From the IMG/VR virus record IMGVR_UViG_2778261277_000005: a stretch of 17,171 nucleotides of DNA. One strand, written 5' to 3'. The DNA comes from a virus (taxonomy: Duplodnaviria; Heunggongvirae; Uroviricota; Caudoviricetes). Positions 2,496-17,171 of the stretch are shown here, one piece after another. Position 1 is the first letter of the stretch. Each line of letters starts with the position of its first letter. The notes beneath the pieces are model-generated. The model worked only from the letters and a program-made list of their open reading frames with translations. It ran no database searches and was not told the origin of the DNA. A program made the translations under genes and the position numbers.

Positions 2496-4003
2496 TGGCA
2501 ATTCTTGATGATGTGATTGGCGTTTTTTCACCAGGATGGAAAGCGGCAAGGCTGCGTTCCCGTGCGGTGATTCAGGCTTATGAGGCCGTAAAAACGACGC
2601 GGACACACAAAGCCCGACGGGAGAACCGAACTGCCGACCAGTTAAGCCAGTACGGGGCCGTGTCGTTACGTGAGCAGGCCCGTTACCTTGATAACAACCA
2701 CGATCTGGTCATTGGTGTATTTGACAAGCTGGAAGAACGGGTGGTGGGGAAAAACGGGATTATTGTCGAGCCACATCCGGTATTACGCAATGGGGCCATT
2801 GCCCGTGATCTGGCAGCGGAGATACGCACCCGATGGAGTGAATGGTCTGTCAGTCCGGAAGTCACCGGGCAGTTTACCCGTCCGATGCTGGAACGTCTGA
2901 TGCTGCGTACCTGGCTGCGCGATGGTGAGGTGTTTGCCCAGATGGTTTCCGGGCGCATAAACAGCTTGACGCCTTCTGCCGGTGTTCATTTCTGGCTGGA
3001 GGCGCTCGAGCCGGACTTTATTCCCATGACCAGTGATGAGAGCAACAGGCTGAATCAGGGCGTGTTTGTTGATGACTGGGGGCGTCCCGAAAAATATCTG
3101 GTGTATAAAAGCCGTCCCGTATCCGGGCGGCAGATGGAAACCAAAGAAGTGGATGCAGAGCGAATGCTGCATCTTAAATTTGTTCGCCGTCTGCACCAGA
3201 TGCGCGGGACGTCTTTGTTGTCCGGTGTGCTGATCCGCCTCAGTGCTCTGAAAGAGTATGAAGATTCTGAGCTGACTGCAGCAAGGATCGCCGCTGCTCT
3301 GGGGATGTACATCCGGAAAGGCGACGGACAGAGCTATGAAACGGATGGTAATGACAGCAAGGAGAATGAACGCGAGCTTACCATTCAGCCAGGCATTATT
3401 TACGACGATCTGAAACCCGGCGAAGAAATCGGAATGGTGAAGTCGGATCGCCCCAATCCTAACCTTGAAACTTTTCGTAATGGTCAGTTGCGTGCCGTGG
3501 CTGCGGGCAGTCGTCTGAGTTTTTCCAGTACAGCGCGCAACTATAACGGCACTTACAGCGCCCAGCGTCAGGAGCTGGTTGAATCTACTGATGGCTACCT
3601 GATCCTGCAGGACTGGTTTATTGGTGCCGTCACCCGCCCGATGTACCGTGCCTGGCTGAAACAGGCTGTGGCATCCGGTGTTATCAGGCTACCCCGCGAT
3701 CTGGACCGATCTTCACTGTATACCGCGGTGTATTCCGGACCGGTGATGCCGTGGATTGACCCTGTTAAGGAGGCTGAGGCCTGGAAAATTCAGATTCGTG
3801 GTGGAGCGGCGACAGAATCAGACTGGGTACGTGCAGGTGGTCGTAATCCGGATGATGTCAAACGTCGGCGCAAGGCCGAAATTGATGAAAACCGCAAGCT
3901 GGATCTGGTATTTGATACCGATCCGGCCAGTGATAAAGGAGGCAGCAGTGCCGCAACGAAACGACAGGAGCCGCAGCACACCGACGACCAGTCCGAAGAA
4001 TAA
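2495..4003 (+). CDS. Portal protein (lambda B-type family)
   Basis: 502 aa from the ATG overlapping the W stop (TGATG); the ORF-track start at 2423 is an in-frame upstream extension that overlaps W. Size and position are typical for a portal; sequence is diverged from lambda B. Confidence 0.8.
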   Translation: MAILDDVIGVFSPGWKAARLRSRAVIQAYEAVKTTRTHKARRENRTADQLSQYGAVSLREQARYLDNNHDLVIGVFDKLEERVVGKNGIIVEPHPVLRNGAIARDLAAEIRTRWSEWSVSPEVTGQFTRPMLERLMLRTWLRDGEVFAQMVSGRINSLTPSAGVHFWLEALEPDFIPMTSDESNRLNQGVFVDDWGRPEKYLVYKSRPVSGRQMETKEVDAERMLHLKFVRRLHQMRGTSLLSGVLIRLSALKEYEDSELTAARIAAALGMYIRKGDGQSYETDGNDSKENERELTIQPGIIYDDLKPGEEIGMVKSDRPNPNLETFRNGQLRAVAAGSRLSFSSTARNYNGTYSAQRQELVESTDGYLILQDWFIGAVTRPMYRAWLKQAVASGVIRLPRDLDRSSLYTAVYSGPVMPWIDPVKEAEAWKIQIRGGAATESDWVRAGGRNPDDVKRRRKAEIDENRKLDLVFDTDPASDKGGSSAATKRQEPQHTDDQSEE

Positions 4004-4016
4004 TTCCTGGTTCAGG

Positions 4017-5975
4017 ATGCAGGCAGGTCACCAGAGTGACGCGGATATTTATATTTATGACGAGATTGGTTTCTGGGGTGTTACAGCGAAGCAGTTTATC
4101 AGTGATCTGAATGCACTGGGCGATATCACCCACATTAATCTCCATATTAATTCACCGGGTGGCGATGTCTTTGAAGGCATCGCCATTTTTAATGCACTGA
4201 AAACACATGGTGCGTCCATTACCGTTTATGTCGACGGTGTGGCGGCGTCAATGGCGTCGGTCATTGCGATGGTGGGAAACCCGGTCATTATGCCGGAAAA
4301 CTCCTTCATGATGATTCATAAACCATTTGGCTTTACGGGCGGTGATGCGGAGGACATGCGCACCTATGCCGACCTGCTCGATAAAGTTGAGGCGGTTCTG
4401 TTACCCGCTTATGCACAGAAAACCGGGAAAACCACCGATGAAATTGCTGCCATGCTGGCGGATGAGACCTGGATGTCCGGTGCCGAATGTCTGGCACAGG
4501 GATTTGCTGATCAGGTGACACCAGCCGTTAAGGCAATGGCATGTATTCAGTCAAAACGTACAGAGGAATTTAAAAAGATGCCGGAATCCATTCGAAACAT
4601 GATTACTCCGCCACGCAACAGTGCTCCACGCGTACAGGATGATGAACCTGCAGCCTCCCGGACGCCAGTGCAGGCAGCAGCACCCGTGGTGGATGAAAAC
4701 AGTATCCGTGCGCAGGTACTGGCAGAGCAAAAAGCGCGTGTAAACGGTATTAATGATCTGTTTGCCATGTTTGGCGGGCGTTATCAGATGCTGCAGGCCC
4801 AGTGTCTTGCCGATCCTGAATGTTCGCTGGAGCAGGCCCGTGAAAAGCTGTTGAACGAGATGGGGCGCGAGTCCACGCCATCCAATAAAAATACCCCGGC
4901 TCATATTTATGCCGGTAACGGTAATTTTGTGGGGGACGGGATCCGCCAGGCGCTGATGGCGCGTGCCGGATTTGAAAAAACCGAACGTGATAATGTCTAC
5001 AACGGGATGACCCTGCGTGAATATGCCCGTATGTCACTAACTGAACGGGGTATTGGGGTTTCCGGTTATAACCCGATGCAGATGGTCGGTGCGGCGTTCA
5101 CACACAGTACGTCTGACTTCGGTAATATTCTGCTGGATGTTGCGAACAAAGCCATTCTGCAGGGCTGGGAAGATGCCCCTGAAACCTATGAACAGTGGAC
5201 GCGGAAAGGTCAGTTGTCTGATTTTAAAATTGCCCATCGTGTGGGTATGGGGGGCTTCAGTGCTCTGCGTCAGGTGCGTGAAGGGGCGGAATATAAATAC
5301 GTCACCACCGGAGATAAACAGGCCACTATTGCACTGGCGACCTATGGCGAGCTGTTCAGTTTCACCCGTCAGGCCATTATCAATGATGATCTGAATATGC
5401 TGACCGATGTCCCGATGAAACTGGGCCGTGCGGCGAAATCCACTATTGCCGATCTGGTTTATGCCATTCTGACGTCTAACCCGAAAATCTCCACAGATAA
5501 TGTAAGTCTGTTCGATAAAGCGAAACATGCAAACGTACTGGAGAGCGCTGCAATGGACGTGGCATCGCTGGATAAAGCCCGCCAGTTGATGCGCGTTCAG
5601 AAAGAGGGGGAGCGTCATCTGAATATTCGTCCTGCGTTCGTACTGGTACCGACGGCGATGGAGTCTGTTGCTAACCAGGTCATTCGCTCCTCAAGTGTCA
5701 AGGGGGCTGACATTAACGCCGGTATTATTAACCCGGTGAAAGATTTTGCGACCGTTATTGCAGAGCCTCGTCTTGATGATAACAGCCAGACCACCTTCTA
5801 CCTGGCTGCGTCAAAAGGCTCCGATACGATTGAAGTGGCTTATCTCAACGGTGTGGATACGCCATATATTGATCAGATGGAGGGCTTCAGTGTGGATGGC
5901 GTGACAACGAAAGTGCGTATTGACGCCGGTGTCGCGCCAGTTGATCACCGCGGTCTGGTGAAATGTACGGCGTAA
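4017..5975 (+). CDS. Fused prohead protease (ClpP/S14-like) - linker/scaffold - major capsid protein (HK97 fold)
   Basis: The N-terminal ~200 aa carry a ClpP-like serine protease signature (HINSPGGDVFEGIAIF..., GVAASMASVI..., MMIHKP); a Pro/Ala/Gln-rich linker follows; the C-terminal ~380 aa resemble major capsid proteins. Start chosen at the first ATG after the portal stop (MQAGHQSDADIYIYDE...); the ORF-track start at 3756 overlaps the portal. Confidence 0.8.
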   Translation: MQAGHQSDADIYIYDEIGFWGVTAKQFISDLNALGDITHINLHINSPGGDVFEGIAIFNALKTHGASITVYVDGVAASMASVIAMVGNPVIMPENSFMMIHKPFGFTGGDAEDMRTYADLLDKVEAVLLPAYAQKTGKTTDEIAAMLADETWMSGAECLAQGFADQVTPAVKAMACIQSKRTEEFKKMPESIRNMITPPRNSAPRVQDDEPAASRTPVQAAAPVVDENSIRAQVLAEQKARVNGINDLFAMFGGRYQMLQAQCLADPECSLEQAREKLLNEMGRESTPSNKNTPAHIYAGNGNFVGDGIRQALMARAGFEKTERDNVYNGMTLREYARMSLTERGIGVSGYNPMQMVGAAFTHSTSDFGNILLDVANKAILQGWEDAPETYEQWTRKGQLSDFKIAHRVGMGGFSALRQVREGAEYKYVTTGDKQATIALATYGELFSFTRQAIINDDLNMLTDVPMKLGRAAKSTIADLVYAILTSNPKISTDNVSLFDKAKHANVLESAAMDVASLDKARQLMRVQKEGERHLNIRPAFVLVPTAMESVANQVIRSSSVKGADINAGIINPVKDFATVIAEPRLDDNSQTTFYLAASKGSDTIEVAYLNGVDTPYIDQMEGFSVDGVTTKVRIDAGVAPVDHRGLVKCTA

Positions 5976-7641: not shown

Positions 7642-7652
7642 AGGAGGTGGCA

Positions 7653-8396
7653 ATGACCACACCAAATCCACTGGCAAAAACGAAAGGTGCGGGAACGACG
7701 TTCTGGATGTACACCGGCAAGGGCGATGCGTTTGCGAACCCTTTATCGGACACTGACTGGCTGCGTCTTGCGATGGTGAAGGATCTGCAACCTGGCGAAA
7801 TGACCGCTGATGCAGAAGATGACACTTATCTCGATGATGAAGATGCAGACTGGAAAACGACAACCCAGGGGCAGAAATCCGTTGGTGATACTTCGGCGAC
7901 GCTGGCCTGGCGTCCGGGTGACAGCGGGCAGAAAAAACTGGTTCAGTTGTTCGACTCCGGTGAAGTCTGCGCGTTTCGTATCAAATATCCCAACGGCACT
8001 GTTGATGTTTTCCGTGGCTGGCTGAGCTCACTGGGTAAAACCATTGCCTCAAAAGACGTGATGACCCGCACAGTGAAAATCAGCGGTGTGGGGCGTCCGT
8101 ATCTGGCAGAGGAAGGCACTGAAACAGTGAGCGTTACCGGGCTGACGGTGGCACCGGCATCTGCCAGTGTAAAAGTGGGAGCAACCACCACGCTGACCTT
8201 TACAGTAAAACCTGACGGAGCCAGTGACAAAGCGATCAGTGTGCATTCGACAGATCCACAGACTGCCACGGTGACCCTGAACGGGCTTGTGGCCACGGTG
8301 AAAGGCGTGAAGCAGGGCAGTGTCAGCATTGTGGGCATGACTTCTGACGGCGATTTTGTGGCAGTGGCTGCGGTGGCTGTCAGCGCCGCAGGTTAA
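7653..8396 (+). CDS. V: Major tail tube protein V with C-terminal Ig-like (Big_2-type) domain
   Basis: AGGAGG RBS, then ATG (MTTPNPLAKTKGAGTT...). Matches lambda V (KGAGTT, YANPLSD, YLDDEDADW, QGQKS.GDTS, NGTVDVFRGW), and the C-terminal ~90 aa are Thr/Val/Ser-rich like the lambda V Ig-like domain. The ORF-track start at 7647 is a GTG two codons upstream. Confidence 0.9.
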   Translation: MTTPNPLAKTKGAGTTFWMYTGKGDAFANPLSDTDWLRLAMVKDLQPGEMTADAEDDTYLDDEDADWKTTTQGQKSVGDTSATLAWRPGDSGQKKLVQLFDSGEVCAFRIKYPNGTVDVFRGWLSSLGKTIASKDVMTRTVKISGVGRPYLAEEGTETVSVTGLTVAPASASVKVGATTTLTFTVKPDGASDKAISVHSTDPQTATVTLNGLVATVKGVKQGSVSIVGMTSDGDFVAVAAVAVSAAG

Positions 8397-8414
8397 CAGG
8401 ACGATACTCATCAT

Positions 8415-8440
8415 TTGCCCCGGTTATCCGGGGCTTTTTT
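8415..8440 (+). terminator. Intrinsic terminator between V and G
   Basis: GCCCCGG-TTAT-CCGGGGC (7-bp GC stem) followed by TTTTTT, ~20 nt after the V stop. The ORF-track TTG start for G (8415) lies inside this hairpin and is rejected. Confidence 0.6.
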
Positions 8441-8456
8441 GCAGGTGGAGAACATG

Positions 8457-8843
8457 ATGTTTCTGAAACAGGGCACGTTTAATTATGAAAAGCAGTCCGT
8501 GGTGCTCAGTGAGCTGTCCGGGCTGCAGAGAATTGAATATCTGGCGTTTGTTCAGCAGCGAACGGCAAAGTTTGATGCCGAAGAGGGAGAACTGCCGGAG
8601 GCTGAACGACAGATTGCTTTTCTGCGGATGGGGATGGATATCAATGCCTGGCTGGTTTCCCGCTCACTGTGGAATGCGGAACAGTCTCAGGATGTTGAGA
8701 CGCTTTGCGCATCCGTTATTACAACATGGTCGTATGATGCCCTGGGAGCGGGGGCGGAGATGGTTCTGTCGCTGAGCGGTATGGGAGTCATTGAGAATGC
8801 CGGGGATTTGGAGCATGAGGTGCTGACGCCGGAAAAGTCCTGA
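8457..8843 (+). CDS. G: Tail assembly chaperone G
   Basis: Starts MFLKQGTF... (lambda G starts MFLKTESF...), with GGAG upstream; 128 aa; located immediately upstream of the tape measure gene. Confidence 0.85.
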   Translation: MFLKQGTFNYEKQSVVLSELSGLQRIEYLAFVQQRTAKFDAEEGELPEAERQIAFLRMGMDINAWLVSRSLWNAEQSQDVETLCASVITTWSYDALGAGAEMVLSLSGMGVIENAGDLEHEVLTPEKS

Positions 8844-9181
8844 CGCGGGAAATGCAGTTTGTCATGCGGCTTGCCCGGGAGTTCCGGCGGGCAGACTGGC
8901 GGCGGATGCTGTCGGAAATGTCGGCCACTGAGCTTGGTGAGTGGGGCGATTATTTCCGGATGCAGAGCTTCAGTGATGTGTGGATGGATGCGCAGTTTGC
9001 CTCGCTGAAGGCATTGATCGTGAGAATGGTGTCCGGTAGCAGTGATGCTGCGGTGGCTGATTTCAGCCTTTTACCGGAAGAGAACGGGATACCGGAGCGA
9101 ACGGACGAAGAACTGATGCATCTTGGGGAAGGTATTTCCGGAGGTGTGCGTTATGGACCAGATAGCCAACCTGGTCATTGA
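8457..9181 (+). CDS. T: Tail assembly chaperone G-T fusion, produced by programmed -1 ribosomal frameshift near the 3' end of G
   Basis: The 8852..9181 ORF is in the -1 frame relative to G, and that frame is stop-free across the G stop codon. This mirrors the conserved G/GT arrangement of lambda-like tail modules. Candidate slip region is CCGGAAAAG, ~8829-8837. Confidence 0.7.
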
Positions 9182-12100
9182 TTTGGGGATTGATGCGGCA
9201 GAGTTTAAAAATGAAATTCCCCGTATCAAAAACCTTCTGAATGGTGCAGCCAGCGATGCAGAACGGTCTTCTGCCCGTATGCAGCGTTTTATGGAGCGTC
9301 AGACTCAGGCCGCCCGGCAGACAACGCAGGCAGCTTCTTCGGCTGCAACAGCCGCATCCGTCCATGCGCAGACGGTGGAGAAGAACGCACAGGCTCATGA
9401 ACGCATGGCCCGCGAGGTGGAGAAAACCCGCCAGCGCATGGAGGCACTGAGCCAGAAAATGCGCGAGGAACAGGCGCAGGCCATGGCTCTGGCGGAGGCT
9501 CAGGATAAAGCGGCTGCTGCGTTTTATCGTCAGATTGACAGTGTGAAACAGGCCAGTGCGGGGCTGCAGGAATTACAGCGTATTCAGCAGCAGATCCGAC
9601 AGGCCAGAAACAGTGGCGGGATTGGTCAGCAGGATTATCTGGCGCTGATTTCTGAGGTTACTGCGAAAACTCGTGTTCTTACACAGGCTGAGGAAGAGGC
9701 TACCCGACAGAAAGTGGCGTTTATCCGTCAGCTTAAAGAGCAGGCAACCCGCCAGAATCTTTCTTCTTCTGAGTTGCTTCGTGCTAAGGCTGCCCAGCTG
9801 GGGGTAAGCAGTGCTGCAGAAGTGTATATCCGCAAAATGGAGCAGGCAGGAAAAGCCACGCATTCGCTGGGTCTGAAAAGTGCAGCGGCCCGCCAGGAGA
9901 TAGGCGTTCTGATAGGTGAACTGGCTCGCGGCAATTTAGGTGCGCTGAGGGGATCCGGGATAACGCTGGCTAACCGTGCCGGATGGATAGACACACTGAT
10001 GTCACCGAAAGGCATGATGCTGGGCGGGGTTATTGGCGGTATTGCCGCGGCCGTCTATGGTCTGGGTAAAGCCTGGTATGATGGTCAGAAGGAGGGGGAA
10101 GAATTTAACCGCCAGTTGTCGCTGACGGGGCATTATGCCGGAGTCACTGCCGGGCAGCTGTGGACGCTCAGTCGTGCTATTTCCGGGAATGGTATCACGC
10201 AACATGCTGCAGCCGGTGCGCTGGCTCAGGTGGTGGGGAGTGGTGCATTTCGTGGAAACGATATCGGTATGGTGGCGAGAGCTGCCGCACAGATGGAGCG
10301 ATCGGTTGGCCAGTCGGTCAGCGATACCATAAATCAGTTTAAGCGGCTGAAGGATGATCCTGTAAATGCCGCGAAGGCTCTGGACAATGAGCTGCATTTT
10401 CTTACTGCCACTCAGCTTGAGCAGATACGCGTCCTTGGGGAACAGGGGCGGTCCAGTGATGCGGCACGGATAGCCATGTCTGCACTGGCAGAGGAAACCG
10501 GTCGGCGTACTGCGGATATTGATAATAACCTCAATGCGCTGGGCAGTACGCTGAAGTATCTGTCTGATTTATGGAGTCGTTTCTGGGATGCGGCCATGAA
10601 TATTGGTCGTGAAGACTCGCTGGATGAACAGATTTCCGCTTTACAGGAGAAAGTGTCGCGGGCGAAAAGACTCCCCTGGACGGCATCATCTTCTCAGGTT
10701 GAGTACGATCAGCAGCGTCTTAACGAGCTTCAGGAGAAAAAACGCCAGAAGGATTTGCAGGATGCAAAAGAGCAGGCAGAGCAGAATTATCAGGAGCAAC
10801 AGAAACGCCGTAATGCTGAAAATGCTGCACTGAACCGGATGAATGAAACGGAAGCAGCACGACATCAGCGTGAAATTGCGCGTATTAATTCCATGCAGTA
10901 CGCCGATCAGGCTGTCAGGGATGCGGCGATACAACGTGAAAATGAACGTTACGAGAAAGCCCTGGCATCCGGTAAGAAAAAAACACGCGAACCCCGTAAT
11001 GATGAGGCCACCCGGTTATTGCTGCAGTACAGTCAGCAACAGGCACAGGTGGAAGGACAGATTGCTGCTGTCAGACAGTCAGCAGGCATTGCCACGGAAA
11101 GGATGACAGAAGCGCATAAACAGCTTCTGGCTCTGCAGCAGCGCATCAGCGACCTGGACGGGAAAAAACTGACGGCAGATGAAAAGAGTGTGCTGGCCCG
11201 TAAAGATGAACTGATTCAGGCACTGACGCTGCTGGATGTAAAACAGCAGGAGCTTCAGAAACAGACGGCACTCAACGAGCTGAAGAAAAAAACAATTCAG
11301 CTGACCAGTCAACTGGCTGAAGAAGAGCGCGCTCAGCGTCAGCAACATGACCTGGATATCGCCACGGTGGGTATGGGTGATCAGCAGCGGCAGCGATATC
11401 AGGTACAACTGAGTCTTCGCCAGAAATACCAGCAACAGCTGGAGCAGTTGAGGCGGGATAGTGAGCAGAAAGGAACATATAACACGGATGACTACAGAAA
11501 GGCCGAGCAGGCGCTGACGGAGAGCCTGAACCGACAACTGAATGAGAATCGCCGTTACTGGCAACAGCTTGAAGTTGTGCAGGGTAACTGGAAAAACGGA
11601 GTCCTGCGTGCATTTCAGAATTTTACCGTGGATGCAGATAATACGGCAGGAACAGCAGAACAGGTGTTCTCGTCAGCCTTCAGCAACATGGGAAATGGCC
11701 TGGCAACTTTTGTCACTACCGGCAAACTCAATTTCAAATCCTTCACCTCTTCTGTGCTGTCAGACATGGCGAAAATCCTGGCGCAGGCAACCATGATGAA
11801 ATCGATAAAAGGGATTGGCAGTGTACTGGGATTTGATCTCAGCAGCCTTTCCCTGAATGCCAATGGGGGGATTTATCAGTCTGCTGATTTGAGTCGTTAC
11901 AGTGGCACGGTGGTTAACCGTCCGACGTTTTTTGCTTTTGCAAAAGGCGCGGGTGTGATGGGGGAAGCGGGACCTGAAGCCATTCTGCCACTGCGTCGTG
12001 GTGCTGACGGTAAGCTGGGGGTTGTGGCGGATATTGGTGGTTCAGGTATGGCGATGTTTGCCCCGCAGTACAACATCGAGATCAATAACGATGGCACGAA

Positions 12101-12218
12101 CGGGCAGATAGGTCCGGCTGCCCTGAAGGTGGTTTATGACCTCGGGAAAAAAGCGGCAGCGGACTTTATGCAACAGCAGGCCCGTGATGGTGGTCGGTTA
12201 AGTGGAGCATATCGGTAA
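9153..12218 (+). CDS. H: Tail tape measure protein H
   Basis: ~1021 aa from the ATG preceded by GGAGG (MDQIANLVIDLGID...); the ORF-track start at 9123 is an upstream extension. Long Q/A/E/R-rich coiled-coil central region; directly downstream of G/T. Stop overlaps the M start (TAATG). Confidence 0.9.
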   Translation: MDQIANLVIDLGIDAAEFKNEIPRIKNLLNGAASDAERSSARMQRFMERQTQAARQTTQAASSAATAASVHAQTVEKNAQAHERMAREVEKTRQRMEALSQKMREEQAQAMALAEAQDKAAAAFYRQIDSVKQASAGLQELQRIQQQIRQARNSGGIGQQDYLALISEVTAKTRVLTQAEEEATRQKVAFIRQLKEQATRQNLSSSELLRAKAAQLGVSSAAEVYIRKMEQAGKATHSLGLKSAAARQEIGVLIGELARGNLGALRGSGITLANRAGWIDTLMSPKGMMLGGVIGGIAAAVYGLGKAWYDGQKEGEEFNRQLSLTGHYAGVTAGQLWTLSRAISGNGITQHAAAGALAQVVGSGAFRGNDIGMVARAAAQMERSVGQSVSDTINQFKRLKDDPVNAAKALDNELHFLTATQLEQIRVLGEQGRSSDAARIAMSALAEETGRRTADIDNNLNALGSTLKYLSDLWSRFWDAAMNIGREDSLDEQISALQEKVSRAKRLPWTASSSQVEYDQQRLNELQEKKRQKDLQDAKEQAEQNYQEQQKRRNAENAALNRMNETEAARHQREIARINSMQYADQAVRDAAIQRENERYEKALASGKKKTREPRNDEATRLLLQYSQQQAQVEGQIAAVRQSAGIATERMTEAHKQLLALQQRISDLDGKKLTADEKSVLARKDELIQALTLLDVKQQELQKQTALNELKKKTIQLTSQLAEEERAQRQQHDLDIATVGMGDQQRQRYQVQLSLRQKYQQQLEQLRRDSEQKGTYNTDDYRKAEQALTESLNRQLNENRRYWQQLEVVQGNWKNGVLRAFQNFTVDADNTAGTAEQVFSSAFSNMGNGLATFVTTGKLNFKSFTSSVLSDMAKILAQATMMKSIKGIGSVLGFDLSSLSLNANGGIYQSADLSRYSGTVVNRPTFFAFAKGAGVMGEAGPEAILPLRRGADGKLGVVADIGGSGMAMFAPQYNIEINNDGTNGQIGPAALKVVYDLGKKAAADFMQQQARDGGRLSGAYR

Positions 12219-14603: not shown

Positions 14604-17171
14604 ATGGGTAAAGGAAGCAGTAAGGGGCATACCCCGCGCGAAGCGAAGGACAACCTGAAGTCCACGCAGTTGCTGAGTGTGATTGATGCCATCAGTGAAG
14701 GGCCGATTGAAGGTCCGGTGGATGGATTAAAAAGCGTGCTGCTGAACAGTACGCCGGTGCTGGACAGTGATGGGAATACCAACATCGCCGGTGTCACGGT
14801 GGTGTTCCGGGCTGGTGAGCAGGAGCAGACTCCGCCGGAGGGATTTGAATCCTCCGGCTCCGAGACGGTGTTGGGTACGGAAGTGAAATACGACACGCCG
14901 ATCACCCGCGCCATCACGTCGGCAAACATCGACCGACTGCGCTTTACCTTCGGTGTGCAGGCACTGGTGGAAACCACCTCAAAGGGGGACCGGAATCCGT
15001 CGGAAGTTCGCCTGCTGGTTCAGATACAGCGTAATGGTGGCTGGGTGACGGAAAAAGACATCACCATTAAGGGCAAAACCACCTCGCAGTATCTGGCCTC
15101 GGTGGTGGTGGATAACCTGCCGCCGCGCCCGTTTAATATCCGGATGCGCAGAATGACGCCGGACAGCACCACAGACCAGCTGCAGAACAAAACGCTCTGG
15201 TCGTCATACACCGAAATCATCGATGTGAAACAGTGCTACCCGAACACGGCACTGGTCGGCGTGCAGGTGGACTCGGAACAGTTCGGCAGCCAGCAGGTGA
15301 GCCGTAATTATCATCTTCGCGGGCGCATTCTGCAGGTGCCGTCGAACTATAACCCGCAGACGCGGCAATACAGCGGTATCTGGGACGGAACGTTTAAGCC
15401 AGCATACAGCAACAACATGGCCTGGTGTCTGTGGGATATGCTGACCCATCCGCGCTACGGCATGGGGAAGCGTCTCGGTGCGGCGGATGTGGACAAATGG
15501 GCGCTGTATGTCATCGGCCAGAATTGCGACCAGTCGGTGCCGGATGGCTTTGGTGGCACGGAGCCGCGCATCACCTGTAATGCCTGGCTGATCACACAGC
15601 GCAAGGCGTGGGATGTTCTCAGTGATTTCTGCTCGGCGATGCGCTGTATGCCGGTATGGAACGGGCAGACGCTGACGTTCGTGCAGGACCGACCGTCGGA
15701 TAAGGTGTGGACCTATAACCGCAGTAATGTGGTGATGCCGGATGATGGCGCGCCGTTCCGCTACAGCTTCAGTGCCCTGAAGGACCGTCATAATGCCGTT
15801 GAGGTGAACTGGATTGACCCGGATAACGGCTGGGAGACGGCGACAGAGCTTGTGGAGGACACGCAGGCCATTGCCCGTTACGGTCGTAACGTCACGAAGA
15901 TGGATGCCTTTGGCTGTACCAGCCGGGGGCAGGCACACCGCGCCGGGCTGTGGCTGATTAAAACGGAACTGCTGGAAACGCAGACCGTGGACTTCAGCGT
16001 GGGTGCCGAAGGGCTTCGCCATGTACCAGGTGATGTCATTGAAATCTGTGATGATGACTATGCGGGGATCAGCACCGGCGGGCGCGTGCTGGCGGTGAAC
16101 AGCCAGACCCGGACGCTGACGCTCGACCGTGAAATCACGCTGCCATCCTCCGGTACCACGCTGATAAGCCTGGTTGACGGAAGTGGCAATCCGGTCAGCG
16201 TGGAGGTCCAGTCCGTCACCGACGGCGTGAAGGTAAAAGTGAGCCGTGTTCCTGACGGCGTTGCCGGATACAGCGTGTGGGGGCTGAAGCTGCCGACGCT
16301 GCGCCAGCGCCTGTTCCGCTGCGTGAGTATCCGTGAGAACGACGACGGCACGTATGCCATCACCGCCGTGCAGCATGTACCGGAAAAAGAAGCCATCGTG
16401 GATAACGGGGCGCACTTTGACGGCGACCAGAGCGGCACGGTGAATGGTGTCACGCCGCCAGCAGTGCAGCACCTGACTGCCGAAGTCACCGCAGACAGCG
16501 GGGAATATCAGGTGCTGGCGCGCTGGGACACGCCGAAGGTGGTGAAGGGGGTGAGCTTTATGCTTCGCCTGACCGTAACAGCGGACGACGGCAGTGAGCG
16601 GCTGGTCAGCACGGCCCGGACGACAGAAACCACATACCGCTTCAGGCAGCTGGCGCTGGGGCGTTACACGCTGACGGTCCGGGCGGTAAATGCGTGGGGA
16701 CAGCAGGGCGATCCGGCATCGGTATCGTTCCGGATTGCCGCACCGGCAGCGCCGTCGCAGATTGAGCTGACACCCGGGTATTTTCAGATAACCGCCACGC
16801 CGCATCTTGCGGTTTATGATCCGACGGTACAGTTTGAGTTCTGGTTCTCGGAAAAGCGGATTGCGGATATCAGGCAGGTTGAAACCAGCGCGCGTTATCT
16901 TGGTACGGCGCTGTACTGGATAGCCGCCAGTATCAATATCAAACCGGGCCATGATTATTATTTTTACGTTCGCAGTGTGAATACCGTTGGCAAATCGGCA
17001 TTCGTGGAGGCTGTTGGTCGGCCGAGTGATGATGCTTCCGGCTATCTGGATTTTTTCAAAGGCGAGATAGGGAAAAGCCATCTGGCTCAGGAGTTGTGGA
17101 CGCAGATTGATAACGGTCAGCTTGCGCCTGACCTGGCTGAAATCAGGACGTCCATTACGGATGTCAGCAAT
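14604..17171 (+). CDS. J: Tail tip / host specificity protein J, N-terminal ~856 codons; 3' end beyond the window
   Basis: ATG at ~14604 preceded by GGAGCGTGAGG; the frame is open to the last base of the window (exactly 856 codons), which explains its absence from the ORF track (no stop in window). [54 protein letters not shown]... matches the lambda J N-terminus essentially residue for residue by recollection. Confidence 0.92.

What the first reader, a model, noticed from the sequence alone, without database searches (positions are those of the whole stretch)
8820..8860. G-T programmed -1 frameshift with an apparently non-canonical slippery sequence
T (8852..9181) is in the -1 frame relative to G, and that frame is open across the G stop, as expected for the conserved G/GT chaperone pair. 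However, the sequence just before the G stop reads CCG GAA AAG TCC TGA, not lambda's G GGA AAG heptamer. I cannot find GGGAAAG upstream of the stop; one does occur just after it. The shift may therefore use an A-AAG/AAAAG-type site with imperfect P-site re-pairing, which could change the G:GT ratio. My hand count disagreed with the ORF track by one base in this interval, so exact coordinates need recomputing.
Basis: partly seen in the sequence, partly recalled or inferred. Interest (0 to 1): 0.45.

Follow-up and report, generated by a model that had tools for sequence, protein, structure and literature searches.

The report
Known variant G/GT tail-chaperone frameshift site
This is the usual lambda-type tail-chaperone G/GT programmed -1 frameshift, but it uses GGAAAAG instead of lambda's GGGAAAG, a one-base variant already annotated as the slip site in phages N15, phi80 and LLS, so it is real but ordinary.

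Summary
The window is the late operon of a lambdoid E. coli phage or prophage, 99.6% identical to phage Ayreon and about 98% to mEp460 and cdtI. G (8454..8843, PF06894) is followed by the T reading frame (PF06223) in the -1 frame. That frame is open from 8819 to 9181, so only 22 nt (8819..8840) are available for a shift. The only slip-prone site there is G_GAA_AAG at 8831..8837. There is no X_XXY_YYZ heptamer.

The heptamer sits at the position homologous to lambda's G_GGA_AAG. An invariant Lys lies 12 residues before the conserved LARE motif, and -1 frame protein conservation starts exactly there. The ATG at 8852 aligns with Leu in most relatives.

GGAAAAG occupies this position in 55 of 64 distinct sequence contexts sampled, including N15, phi80, Gifsy-1, Gifsy-2 and Fels-1. 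GenBank already labels it as the -1 slippery sequence in N15, phi80 and LLS.

I found no conserved downstream structure. An SD-like GAGGTG 8 nt upstream is a possible but unproven stimulator. The efficiency, and so the G:GT ratio, is unmeasured.

The parts
8454..8843 (+). Gene G, tail assembly chaperone (129 aa); ATG 8454, stop TGA 8841..8843
   Evidence: ORF list. Pfam PF06894 Phage_TAC_2, E = 7e-40. Same boundaries as annotated in Ayreon, mEp460 and Tritos. Translation.
8831..8837 (+). Proposed -1 slip site G_GAA_AAG (0 frame GAA AAG = Glu Lys; -1 frame GGA AAA)
   Evidence: Only in-frame Z_ZZN site in the G/T overlap. Homologous to lambda G_GGA_AAG. Identical heptamer annotated as the slippery sequence in N15, phi80 and LLS. 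Found in 55 of 64 distinct contexts.
8819..8840 (+). G/T overlap: the only stretch where the -1 frame is open while G is still being translated
   Evidence: Last -1 frame stop is TGA 8816..8818; G stop is at 8841.
8837..9181 (+). T segment of the predicted GT fusion. It is read in the -1 frame from GTC 8837..8839 to stop TGA 9179..9181. The predicted GT is 242 aa with junction ...LTPEK|VLTREMQF...
   Evidence: Pfam PF06223 Phage_tail_T, E = 5e-15. Fusion translation. -1 frame conservation from the slip-site Lys onward.
8852..8854 (+). ATG used by database annotations as an independent T start; probably just an internal Met of GT
   Evidence: Aligns with Leu in 9 of the 11 relatives compared, and with Arg or Ile in the two Vibrio phages. 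Residues upstream of it in the -1 frame are conserved.
8817..8822 (+). SD-like GAGGTG, 8 nt upstream of the heptamer; candidate dnaX-like upstream stimulator (hypothesis only)
   Evidence: Best anti-SD duplex is -6.9 kcal/mol. Only 5.8% of positions in this operon do as well. Similar elements occur in 5 of 6 lineages of the clade whose stop lies 3 nt after the heptamer, but are mostly absent from the N15/phi80 clade.
8847..8853 (+).
   Evidence: It lies 3' of the G stop, is out of phase, and is not conserved in Gifsy-1, Gifsy-2 or Fels-1.
7647..8396 (+). Major tail tube protein V, upstream neighbour (context)
   Evidence: PF16461 plus Big_2.
9153..12218 (+). Tape measure protein H, downstream neighbour; overlaps the end of T by 29 nt and has a GGAGGTG SD at 9140..9146 (context)
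   Evidence: PF06791, PF09718 and PF24622. Start as annotated in relatives. Sequence.

Best explanation
A minority of ribosomes translating gene G slip back one nucleotide at G_GAA_AAG (8831..8837) and continue in the T frame. This makes a 242-aa GT fusion (...TPEK|VLTREMQFVMRLAREF...) alongside the 129-aa G, as in phage lambda.

The driver is the single E. coli tRNA-Lys (anticodon mnm5s2UUU), which moves from AAG to the better-paired AAA. The P-site tRNA-Glu moves from GAA to GGA. It keeps the first and third pairs and has a G.U at the middle position. G binds the tape measure protein, and the T part of GT recruits the tail tube protein, so the slip frequency sets the G:GT ratio.

Shown here: the anatomy, the homology of position, the conservation pattern and the lack of alternatives. 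Inferred: that the shift actually occurs, its efficiency, and whether tRNA-Glu truly re-pairs or only tRNA-Lys slips.
For: - Gene order V-G-T-H with the matching Pfam families.
- T is in the -1 frame, open from 8819. G_GAA_AAG is the sole slippery site in the 22-nt overlap.
- The same position as lambda's G_GGA_AAG. An invariant Lys lies 12 residues before LARE, and -1 frame similarity among relatives starts at this Gly-Lys and is absent upstream.
- In about 270 related loci giving 64 distinct contexts, the heptamer at this position is GGAAAAG 55, GGGAAAG 4, CCCAAAA 2, AAAAAAG 1, GGCAAAG 1 and AGAAAAG 1.
- The 0-frame codons are GAA_AAG in 56 of 57 contexts, although GAG and AAA are synonymous. 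This points to nucleotide-level selection.
- The preceding codon ends in G in 56 of 57 contexts, across four different amino acids.
- N15, phi80 and LLS records annotate GGAAAAG as the -1 slippery sequence. phi80 and LLS carry joined G-T CDSs.
- The ATG at 8852 is not conserved.
- Literature: A_AAG is the most shift-prone tetramer in E. coli (PMC4066793). Single G.U mismatches in the -1 frame are tolerated thermodynamically (PMC6787027).
Against: - I found no direct evidence (protein, reporter or mass spectrometry) for this clade or for this heptamer in any phage.
- In a reconstituted system, G GAA AAG was chosen as the 'unfavourable, less slippery' control and gave mainly 0-frame product with wild-type EF-G (PMC6924986).
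- The A_AAG tetramer without a stimulator is barely above background, about 0.15%, against 5.6% with a strong pseudoknot (PMC4066793).
- I found no conserved downstream structure.
- Two single-sequence variants, GGCAAAG and AGAAAAG, suggest P-site re-pairing may not be needed.
Confidence: 0.85

Rival explanations
1. T is made on its own. Ribosomes that terminate at the G stop (UGA 8841..8843) reinitiate 8 nt downstream at AUG 8852, or initiate there de novo. This gives a free 109-aa T and no GT fusion, which is how most database records annotate the locus.
For: ATG 8852 exists close to the G stop and is preceded by GGGA. Ayreon, mEp460, Tritos and PGAP annotate separate G and T CDSs.
Against: - The ATG aligns with Leu in Gifsy-1, Gifsy-2, Fels-1, N15, phi80, mEp213, lambda, PhiR12_5 and Stx2_14040.
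- The -1 frame peptide K-[VA]-[LF]-x-x-E-[LM]-x-F upstream of and across it is conserved, so that stretch is translated.
- GGGA is only 1-2 nt from the ATG.
- The Ayreon record picks a different start from the mEp460 record, so these starts are gene-caller choices.
- By established knowledge of lambda (Levin 1993; Xu 2013 and 2014, cited in PMC5009743), T acts only when tethered to G.
Confidence: 0.06
2. The product is the same but the mechanism differs. Only tRNA-Lys slips on A_AAG (tetramer or NNA_AAG hexamer type, as at IS1222 G_CGA_AAG), either in the A site or in the P site with an empty A site. The leading G and tRNA-Glu re-pairing play no part.
For: - A_AAG alone is a recognised -1 site, and the 5' codon acts through tRNA wobble properties rather than re-pairing (PMC5009743; PMC4066793).
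- Natural variants GGCAAAG and AGAAAAG occur at the same position and cannot re-pair in the P site.
Against: - Heptamer position 1 is G in 56 of 57 contexts, across Pro, Ala, Leu and Val codons. This is only modest evidence, because G-ending codons are preferred in E. coli anyway.
- The two variants are single metagenome-derived sequences.
- Tetramer sites need strong stimulators, and none is evident here.
Confidence: 0.3
3. In this sub-clade the weak heptamer is compensated by an upstream SD-like element (GAGGTG 8817..8822) that pairs with 16S rRNA, as in dnaX and IS911. That would bring GT output back to a lambda-like level.
For: - The anti-SD duplex is -6.9 kcal/mol, 8 nt upstream; only 5.8% of positions in the operon match this.
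- SD-like elements of -4.3 to -9.5 kcal/mol, placed within the 4-16 nt scan range, occur in 5 of 6 lineages of the clade whose stop lies 3 nt after the heptamer.
- They are mostly absent from the N15/phi80 clade and from lambda.
- The spacing falls within the 6-17 nt range that PMC4066793 searched for SD-like stimulators.
Against: - The region encodes an acidic tail (Glu and Asp codons), which makes GAG/GGA strings by itself.
- The lineages are related, so the counts are not independent.
- The N15/phi80 clade uses the same heptamer with no such element.
- One lineage in the clade (L212) lacks it.
Confidence: 0.25

Closest known systems
Phage N15 gene 14/15, phi80 gene G-T and phage LLS genes 11/12: G/GT frameshift at GGAAAAG
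   Same: Identical heptamer G_GAA_AAG at the homologous position, preceded by a codon ending in G and followed by YCC. The gene order is V-G-T-H and the Pfam families are the same. These records explicitly annotate it as the slippery sequence for a -1 frameshift.
   Different: The G and T proteins are only about 43-45% identical to the window's. In those phages the G stop lies 15 nt after the heptamer, against 3 nt here. They have no SD-like element upstream.
Phage lambda G/GT -1 frameshift at G_GGA_AAG (Levin, Hendrix and Casjens 1993; Xu, Hendrix and Duda 2004, 2013, 2014)
   Same: Same genes, same position of the slip, same A-site codon AAG shifting to AAA, and the same -1 frame continuation GK[VA][LF]..EL.F..LARE.
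   Different: One base differs: GGA becomes GAA. The P-site tRNA is therefore tRNA-Glu, which would re-pair with a central G.U mismatch, instead of tRNA-Gly with full pairing. The site does not fit X_XXY_YYZ. The overlap is 22 nt against 61 nt.
Gifsy-1, Gifsy-2 and Fels-1 prophage G/T (Salmonella)
   Same: The same CCG GAA AAG (T/C)CC TGA junction with the stop 3 nt after the heptamer, and an SD-like purine stretch upstream. The Gifsy records mention the frameshift in their product names.
   Different: Only 67-70% nucleotide identity. There is no ATG at the position of 8852.
A_AAG tetramer / NNA_AAG hexamer -1 sites (IS1222 G_CGA_AAG; Bacillus cdd A_CGA_AAG)
   Same: A tRNA-Lys AAG-to-AAA slip without a fully slippery P-site codon (PMC5009743).
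   Different: Those sites work with strong downstream stimulators. None is detectable here.

Membership tests
Lambda-type G/GT tail assembly chaperone -1 programmed frameshift | Two short ORFs lie between the major tail tube gene and the tape measure gene | tested here: met
   V (PF16461), G (PF06894), T (PF06223) and H (PF06791/PF09718) in order on the + strand.
Lambda-type G/GT tail assembly chaperone -1 programmed frameshift | The second ORF is in the -1 frame and open across the stop of the first | tested here: met
   The T frame is open 8819..9181 and the G stop is at 8841.
Lambda-type G/GT tail assembly chaperone -1 programmed frameshift | A slip-prone sequence lies in phase within the overlap, at the position homologous to lambda's | tested here: met
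   G_GAA_AAG 8831..8837 aligns with lambda G_GGA_AAG. The Lys is invariant, 12 residues before LARE.
Lambda-type G/GT tail assembly chaperone -1 programmed frameshift | The downstream ORF lacks a conserved start of its own, and -1 frame conservation begins at the slip site | tested here: met
   ATG 8852 aligns with Leu in 9 of 11 relatives. Conservation starts at Gly-Lys.
Lambda-type G/GT tail assembly chaperone -1 programmed frameshift | A GT fusion protein is actually produced at a low, fixed ratio to G | not testable with these tools
   This needs a western blot, mass spectrometry or a reporter. No published measurement was found for this heptamer in a phage.
Canonical X_XXY_YYZ simultaneous-slippage heptamer | Positions 1-3 are identical and positions 4-6 are identical | tested here: not met
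   GGAAAAG: positions 1-3 are G, G, A. There is no canonical heptamer anywhere in 8819..8840.
N15/phi80-type G_GAA_AAG slip site | Heptamer GGAAAAG in the G frame as G_GAA_AAG at the G/T junction | tested here: met
   Identical heptamer and phase. The annotated misc_features in N15, phi80 and LLS read GGAAAAG.
A_AAG tetramer sites with a strong 3' stimulator (IS3/IS1222 type) | A stable hairpin or pseudoknot lies 5-9 nt downstream of the motif | tested here: not met
   Folding z-scores range from -1.3 to +1.4 for the window, Gifsy-1, Fels-1, Gifsy-2 and lambda. RNAalifold on 9 GGAAAAG junctions gives -16 kcal/mol with a covariation term of +0.41. Rfam finds nothing relevant: no match at gathering thresholds, and one chance sub-threshold lncRNA hit in the permissive scan.
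dnaX / IS911-type upstream SD stimulation | An SD-like sequence lies about 6-17 nt upstream of the motif | tested here: inconclusive
   GAGGTG 8817..8822, -6.9 kcal/mol with an 8-nt gap. The background frequency is 5.8%. The element is specific to one clade and confounded by acidic codons.

The most novel reading that the evidence does not exclude
G_GAA_AAG is intrinsically much less slippery than lambda's heptamer. In that case this very common prophage lineage either runs tail assembly at a G:GT ratio far from lambda's 30:1, or restores the ratio with a so far uncharacterised combination: an upstream SD-like element plus a 0-frame stop one codon after the site. Either would make it a natural test case for how much P-site mismatch (a central G.U) a functional bacterial -1 site tolerates.
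Probability: 0.2. Interest if true: 0.4.

Novelty: already known. Interest (0 to 1): 0.2.

Why it matters
It matters mainly for annotation and as a small point in frameshift mechanics. The cassette is present in 1848 of 5426 complete E. coli genomes. RefSeq/PGAP and most phage records annotate G and T as separate genes, with an arbitrary T start and no GT fusion.

The natural, conserved slip site is exactly the sequence used in vitro as an 'unfavourable' control (PMC6924986). Measuring its in vivo efficiency would show how much P-site mismatch a working bacterial -1 site can bear, and whether the G:GT ratio is really fixed among lambdoid phages. It would not change the established picture of tail assembly.

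Tried and rejected
- **Canonical heptamer search:** I looked for X_XXY_YYZ heptamers in the overlap and found none.
it is GGGAAAT, out of phase and not conserved, so I rejected it.
- **Downstream stimulatory structure:** single-sequence folds of the window, Gifsy-1, Fels-1, Gifsy-2 and lambda are no better than shuffles. The RNAalifold consensus of 9 junctions is weak with no covariation support. The only recurrent hairpin lies about 38 nt downstream inside the highly conserved LAREFxRPDW coding stretch, so protein constraint explains it.
- **Rfam:** no family reached its gathering score in the window. A permissive scan of 8700..9000 gave only a chance lncRNA hit.
- **Transcriptional slippage:** I considered and rejected it from general knowledge, because the A run is only 4 nt. 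This was not tested.
- **Genome-contig scan with a single protein:** it returned only 7 near-identical loci, and the first viral-contig scan returned only relatives at 95% identity or more. I obtained diversity with tblastn against phage records and with scans seeded from N15, Gifsy-2 and Fels-1.
- **Literature:** searches for GGAAAAG or 'G GAA AAG' in a phage context found no experimental work. Licznar et al. 2003, which tested all NNA_AAG hexamers, is not held.
- **Minus-strand ORF 15204..17081:** it looked odd but is an antisense artefact inside gene J.

Full report
**What the window is.** The window is the late (head-tail) operon of a lambdoid E. coli phage or prophage. The 8400..9200 stretch is 99.6% identical to phage Ayreon and 97.5-98.5% identical to cdtI, mEp460, Tritos and others. 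Pfam places the genes in order on the + strand:
- terminase large subunit, portal, and a ClpP/capsid fusion;
- V, the tail tube protein (7647..8396, PF16461);
- G (8454..8843, PF06894, E = 7e-40);
- the T frame (PF06223, E = 5e-15);
- the tape measure protein H (9153..12218);
- then M, L, K, I and J.

**Checking the observation.**
- G ends ...ACG CCG GAA AAG TCC TGA, with the stop at 8841..8843.
- The ORF 8852..9181 is in the -1 frame.
- The last upstream stop in that frame is TGA 8816..8818. The frame is therefore open from 8819, giving a 22-nt overlap (8819..8840).
- The overlap contains no X_XXY_YYZ heptamer. It contains one in-phase site with a slippery A-site codon, G_GAA_AAG at 8831..8837.
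- One detail is wrong. The sequence just after the stop is GGGAAAT (8847..8853), not GGGAAAG. It is downstream of the stop, out of phase, and not conserved in relatives.

**Homology of the site.** I compared the junctions of 16 phage lineages besides the window. The heptamer at this position is:
- G_GGA_AAG in lambda, PhiR29_1, PhiR12_5 and an Stx2a phage;
- A_AAA_AAG in the Stx2_14040 and Stx1_111698 phages;
- C_CCA_AAA in two Vibrio phages;
- G_GAA_AAG in N15, HK225, phi80, LLS, mEp213, Gifsy-1, Gifsy-2, Fels-1 and the window clade.

In every case this heptamer lies at the same place. In the alignment of -1 frame translations (A3) the Lys of the heptamer is invariant. It sits 5 residues before an invariant Glu, 8 before an invariant Phe, and 12 before the invariant LARE motif.

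Upstream of the Gly-Lys the -1 frame translations are unrelated (GADA, HDHA, TRYC, ACFC...). Downstream they are conserved. This is the expected signature of a shift at that point.

The ATG at 8852, used as the T start by most annotations, aligns with Leu in 9 of the 11 other sequences. Residues encoded upstream of it in the -1 frame (K-[VA]-[LF]-x-x-E) are conserved. Independent initiation at that ATG is therefore unlikely.

**Breadth and nucleotide-level selection.** Scans of IMG/VR seeded from the window, N15, Gifsy-2 and Fels-1 G proteins, together with the genome and phage loci, gave about 270 loci. These have 70 distinct junctions by one definition and 64 distinct 42-nt contexts by another.
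- Over distinct contexts, GGAAAAG accounts for 55, GGGAAAG 4, CCCAAAA 2, AAAAAAG 1, GGCAAAG 1 and AGAAAAG 1.
- Within the GGAAAAG-type group the 0-frame codons are GAA_AAG in 56 of 57 contexts. GAG and AAA would encode the same residues of G, and AAG is the minor Lys codon in E. coli (general knowledge). This argues for selection on the nucleotides themselves.
- The preceding codon is GCG, CCG, CTG or GTG in 56 of 57 contexts. That is four different amino acids, all with a codon ending in G. It weakly favours a role for heptamer position 1, although G-ending codons are preferred anyway.
- The following codon is TCC or CCC in 54 of 57 contexts.
- The two odd variants, G_GCA_AAG and A_GAA_AAG, are single sequences. 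If real, they suggest A_AAG is the essential core.

**It is already known.**
- The N15 RefSeq record carries a misc_feature 'slippery sequence for -1 translational frameshift' whose sequence is GGAAAAG.
- phi80 has the same feature plus a joined gpG-T CDS.
- Phage LLS has a joined CDS and a feature literally named 'minus-one programmed translational frameshift site GGAAAAG'.
- The Gifsy-1 and Gifsy-2 records name T as part of G 'by translational frameshifting'.
- By contrast, records of the window's own clade and PGAP annotate G and T as separate CDSs. The cassette is found in 1848 of 5426 complete E. coli genomes.

**Mechanism.** The best-supported reading is a -1 slip in which tRNA-Lys moves from AAG to AAA.
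- A_AAG is the most shift-prone tetramer in E. coli (PMC4066793; PMC5009743).
- tRNA-Glu would move from GAA to GGA with a G.U at the middle position.
- A thermodynamic model of dnaX variants shows that a single A.U to G.U change costs only a few kJ/mol. [quoted passage not shown]
- PRFect's authors likewise invoke G.U pairing of tRNA-Glu with GGA for mycobacteriophage GGGGGAA sites (PMC10885494).

Against high efficiency:
- Peng et al. chose AUG GAA AAG (G GAA AAG) as the 'unfavourable' sequence because of the second-position mismatch. They saw mainly 0-frame product with wild-type EF-G (PMC6924986).
- A_AAG without a stimulator is near background, about 0.15%, against 5.6% with the IS3 pseudoknot.

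The frequency here may therefore be lower than lambda's, which makes about 1 GT per 30 G (PMC5009743), unless something stimulates the shift.

**Search for stimulators.**
- Downstream folds of the window and four relatives are no more stable than shuffled controls.
- RNAalifold over nine GGAAAAG junctions gives a weak consensus with a slightly unfavourable covariation term.
- Rfam finds nothing relevant: no family reached its gathering score, and the permissive scan gave only a chance lncRNA hit.
- Upstream, the window has GAGGTG (8817..8822) 8 nt before the heptamer, with an anti-SD duplex of -6.9 kcal/mol. Only 5.8% of positions in this operon do as well.
- Comparable elements occur in 5 of 6 lineages of the sub-clade whose G stop lies 3 nt after the heptamer (the window type, Gifsy-1, Gifsy-2, Fels-1 and L202, but not L212).
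- They are mostly absent from the N15/phi80 clade and from lambda.
- This fits a dnaX-like SD stimulator. It is confounded by shared ancestry and by the acidic residues encoded there, so I rate it as a hypothesis with about 0.25 confidence.

**Rivals.**
- Free T made by reinitiation at AUG 8852 is unlikely (about 0.06), for the conservation reasons given above.
- Single-tRNA slippage and two-tRNA slippage give the same protein and cannot be separated computationally.

**Verdict.** The feature is the ordinary G/GT frameshift with a slip-site variant that phage annotators have recognised at least since the N15 record was annotated. Novelty: already known. Interest is low (0.2). What remains of value is the annotation gap in a very common prophage and an untested question about the efficiency of a mismatched natural slip site.

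Noticed in passing
window 8417..8441 (+): A strong intrinsic-terminator-like hairpin (GCCCCGG TTAT CCGGGGC followed by TTTTTT) sits in the 57-nt gap between the tail tube gene V and gene G. Homologous features are annotated as terminators in Ayreon, mEp460 and N15. It may attenuate transcription so that G, GT and H are made in lower amounts than V.
   Followed up: partly
window 15204..17081 (-): A 625-aa minus-strand ORF with no Pfam hit lies antisense inside the tail tip gene J. J runs off the end of the window, so it is missing from the ORF list. The ORF is most likely an artefact of an open antisense frame and not a gene.
   Followed up: yes
window 8841..8843 versus N15 (L096 717..719): Phages using GGAAAAG fall into two junction types. 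In one, the G stop is one codon after the heptamer (window, cdtI/mEp460, Gifsy, Fels-1). In the other it is five codons after (N15, phi80, LLS, mEp213). SD-like upstream elements track the first type.
   Followed up: partly
L155 (IMGVR_UViG_3300048929_000058) and L161 (IMGVR_UViG_2648501177_000013): Single natural variants G_GCA_AAG and A_GAA_AAG occur at the homologous slip position. Neither allows P-site re-pairing. If they are functional, they suggest that A_AAG alone suffices.
   Followed up: no
L203-L211 (IMG/VR loci, about 35% G identity): A distant group has two candidate sites in the overlap: GGAAAAG 19 nt and GGCAAAA 7 nt before the G stop. Its T frame lacks the LARE motif. I did not resolve where it shifts.
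   Followed up: no
window 9153..9181 (+): The tape measure gene H starts (ATG 9153, SD GGAGGTG 9140..9146) inside the last 29 nt of the T frame, so the end of GT and the start of H overlap. The same arrangement is seen in relatives.
   Followed up: no
window 3756..5975 (+): A single ORF combines a ClpP-like prohead protease domain and a major capsid domain. PGAP annotates it in relatives as a 'ClpP-like prohead protease/major capsid protein fusion'. This is typical of this phage group and unlike lambda's C/Nu3/E arrangement.
   Followed up: no
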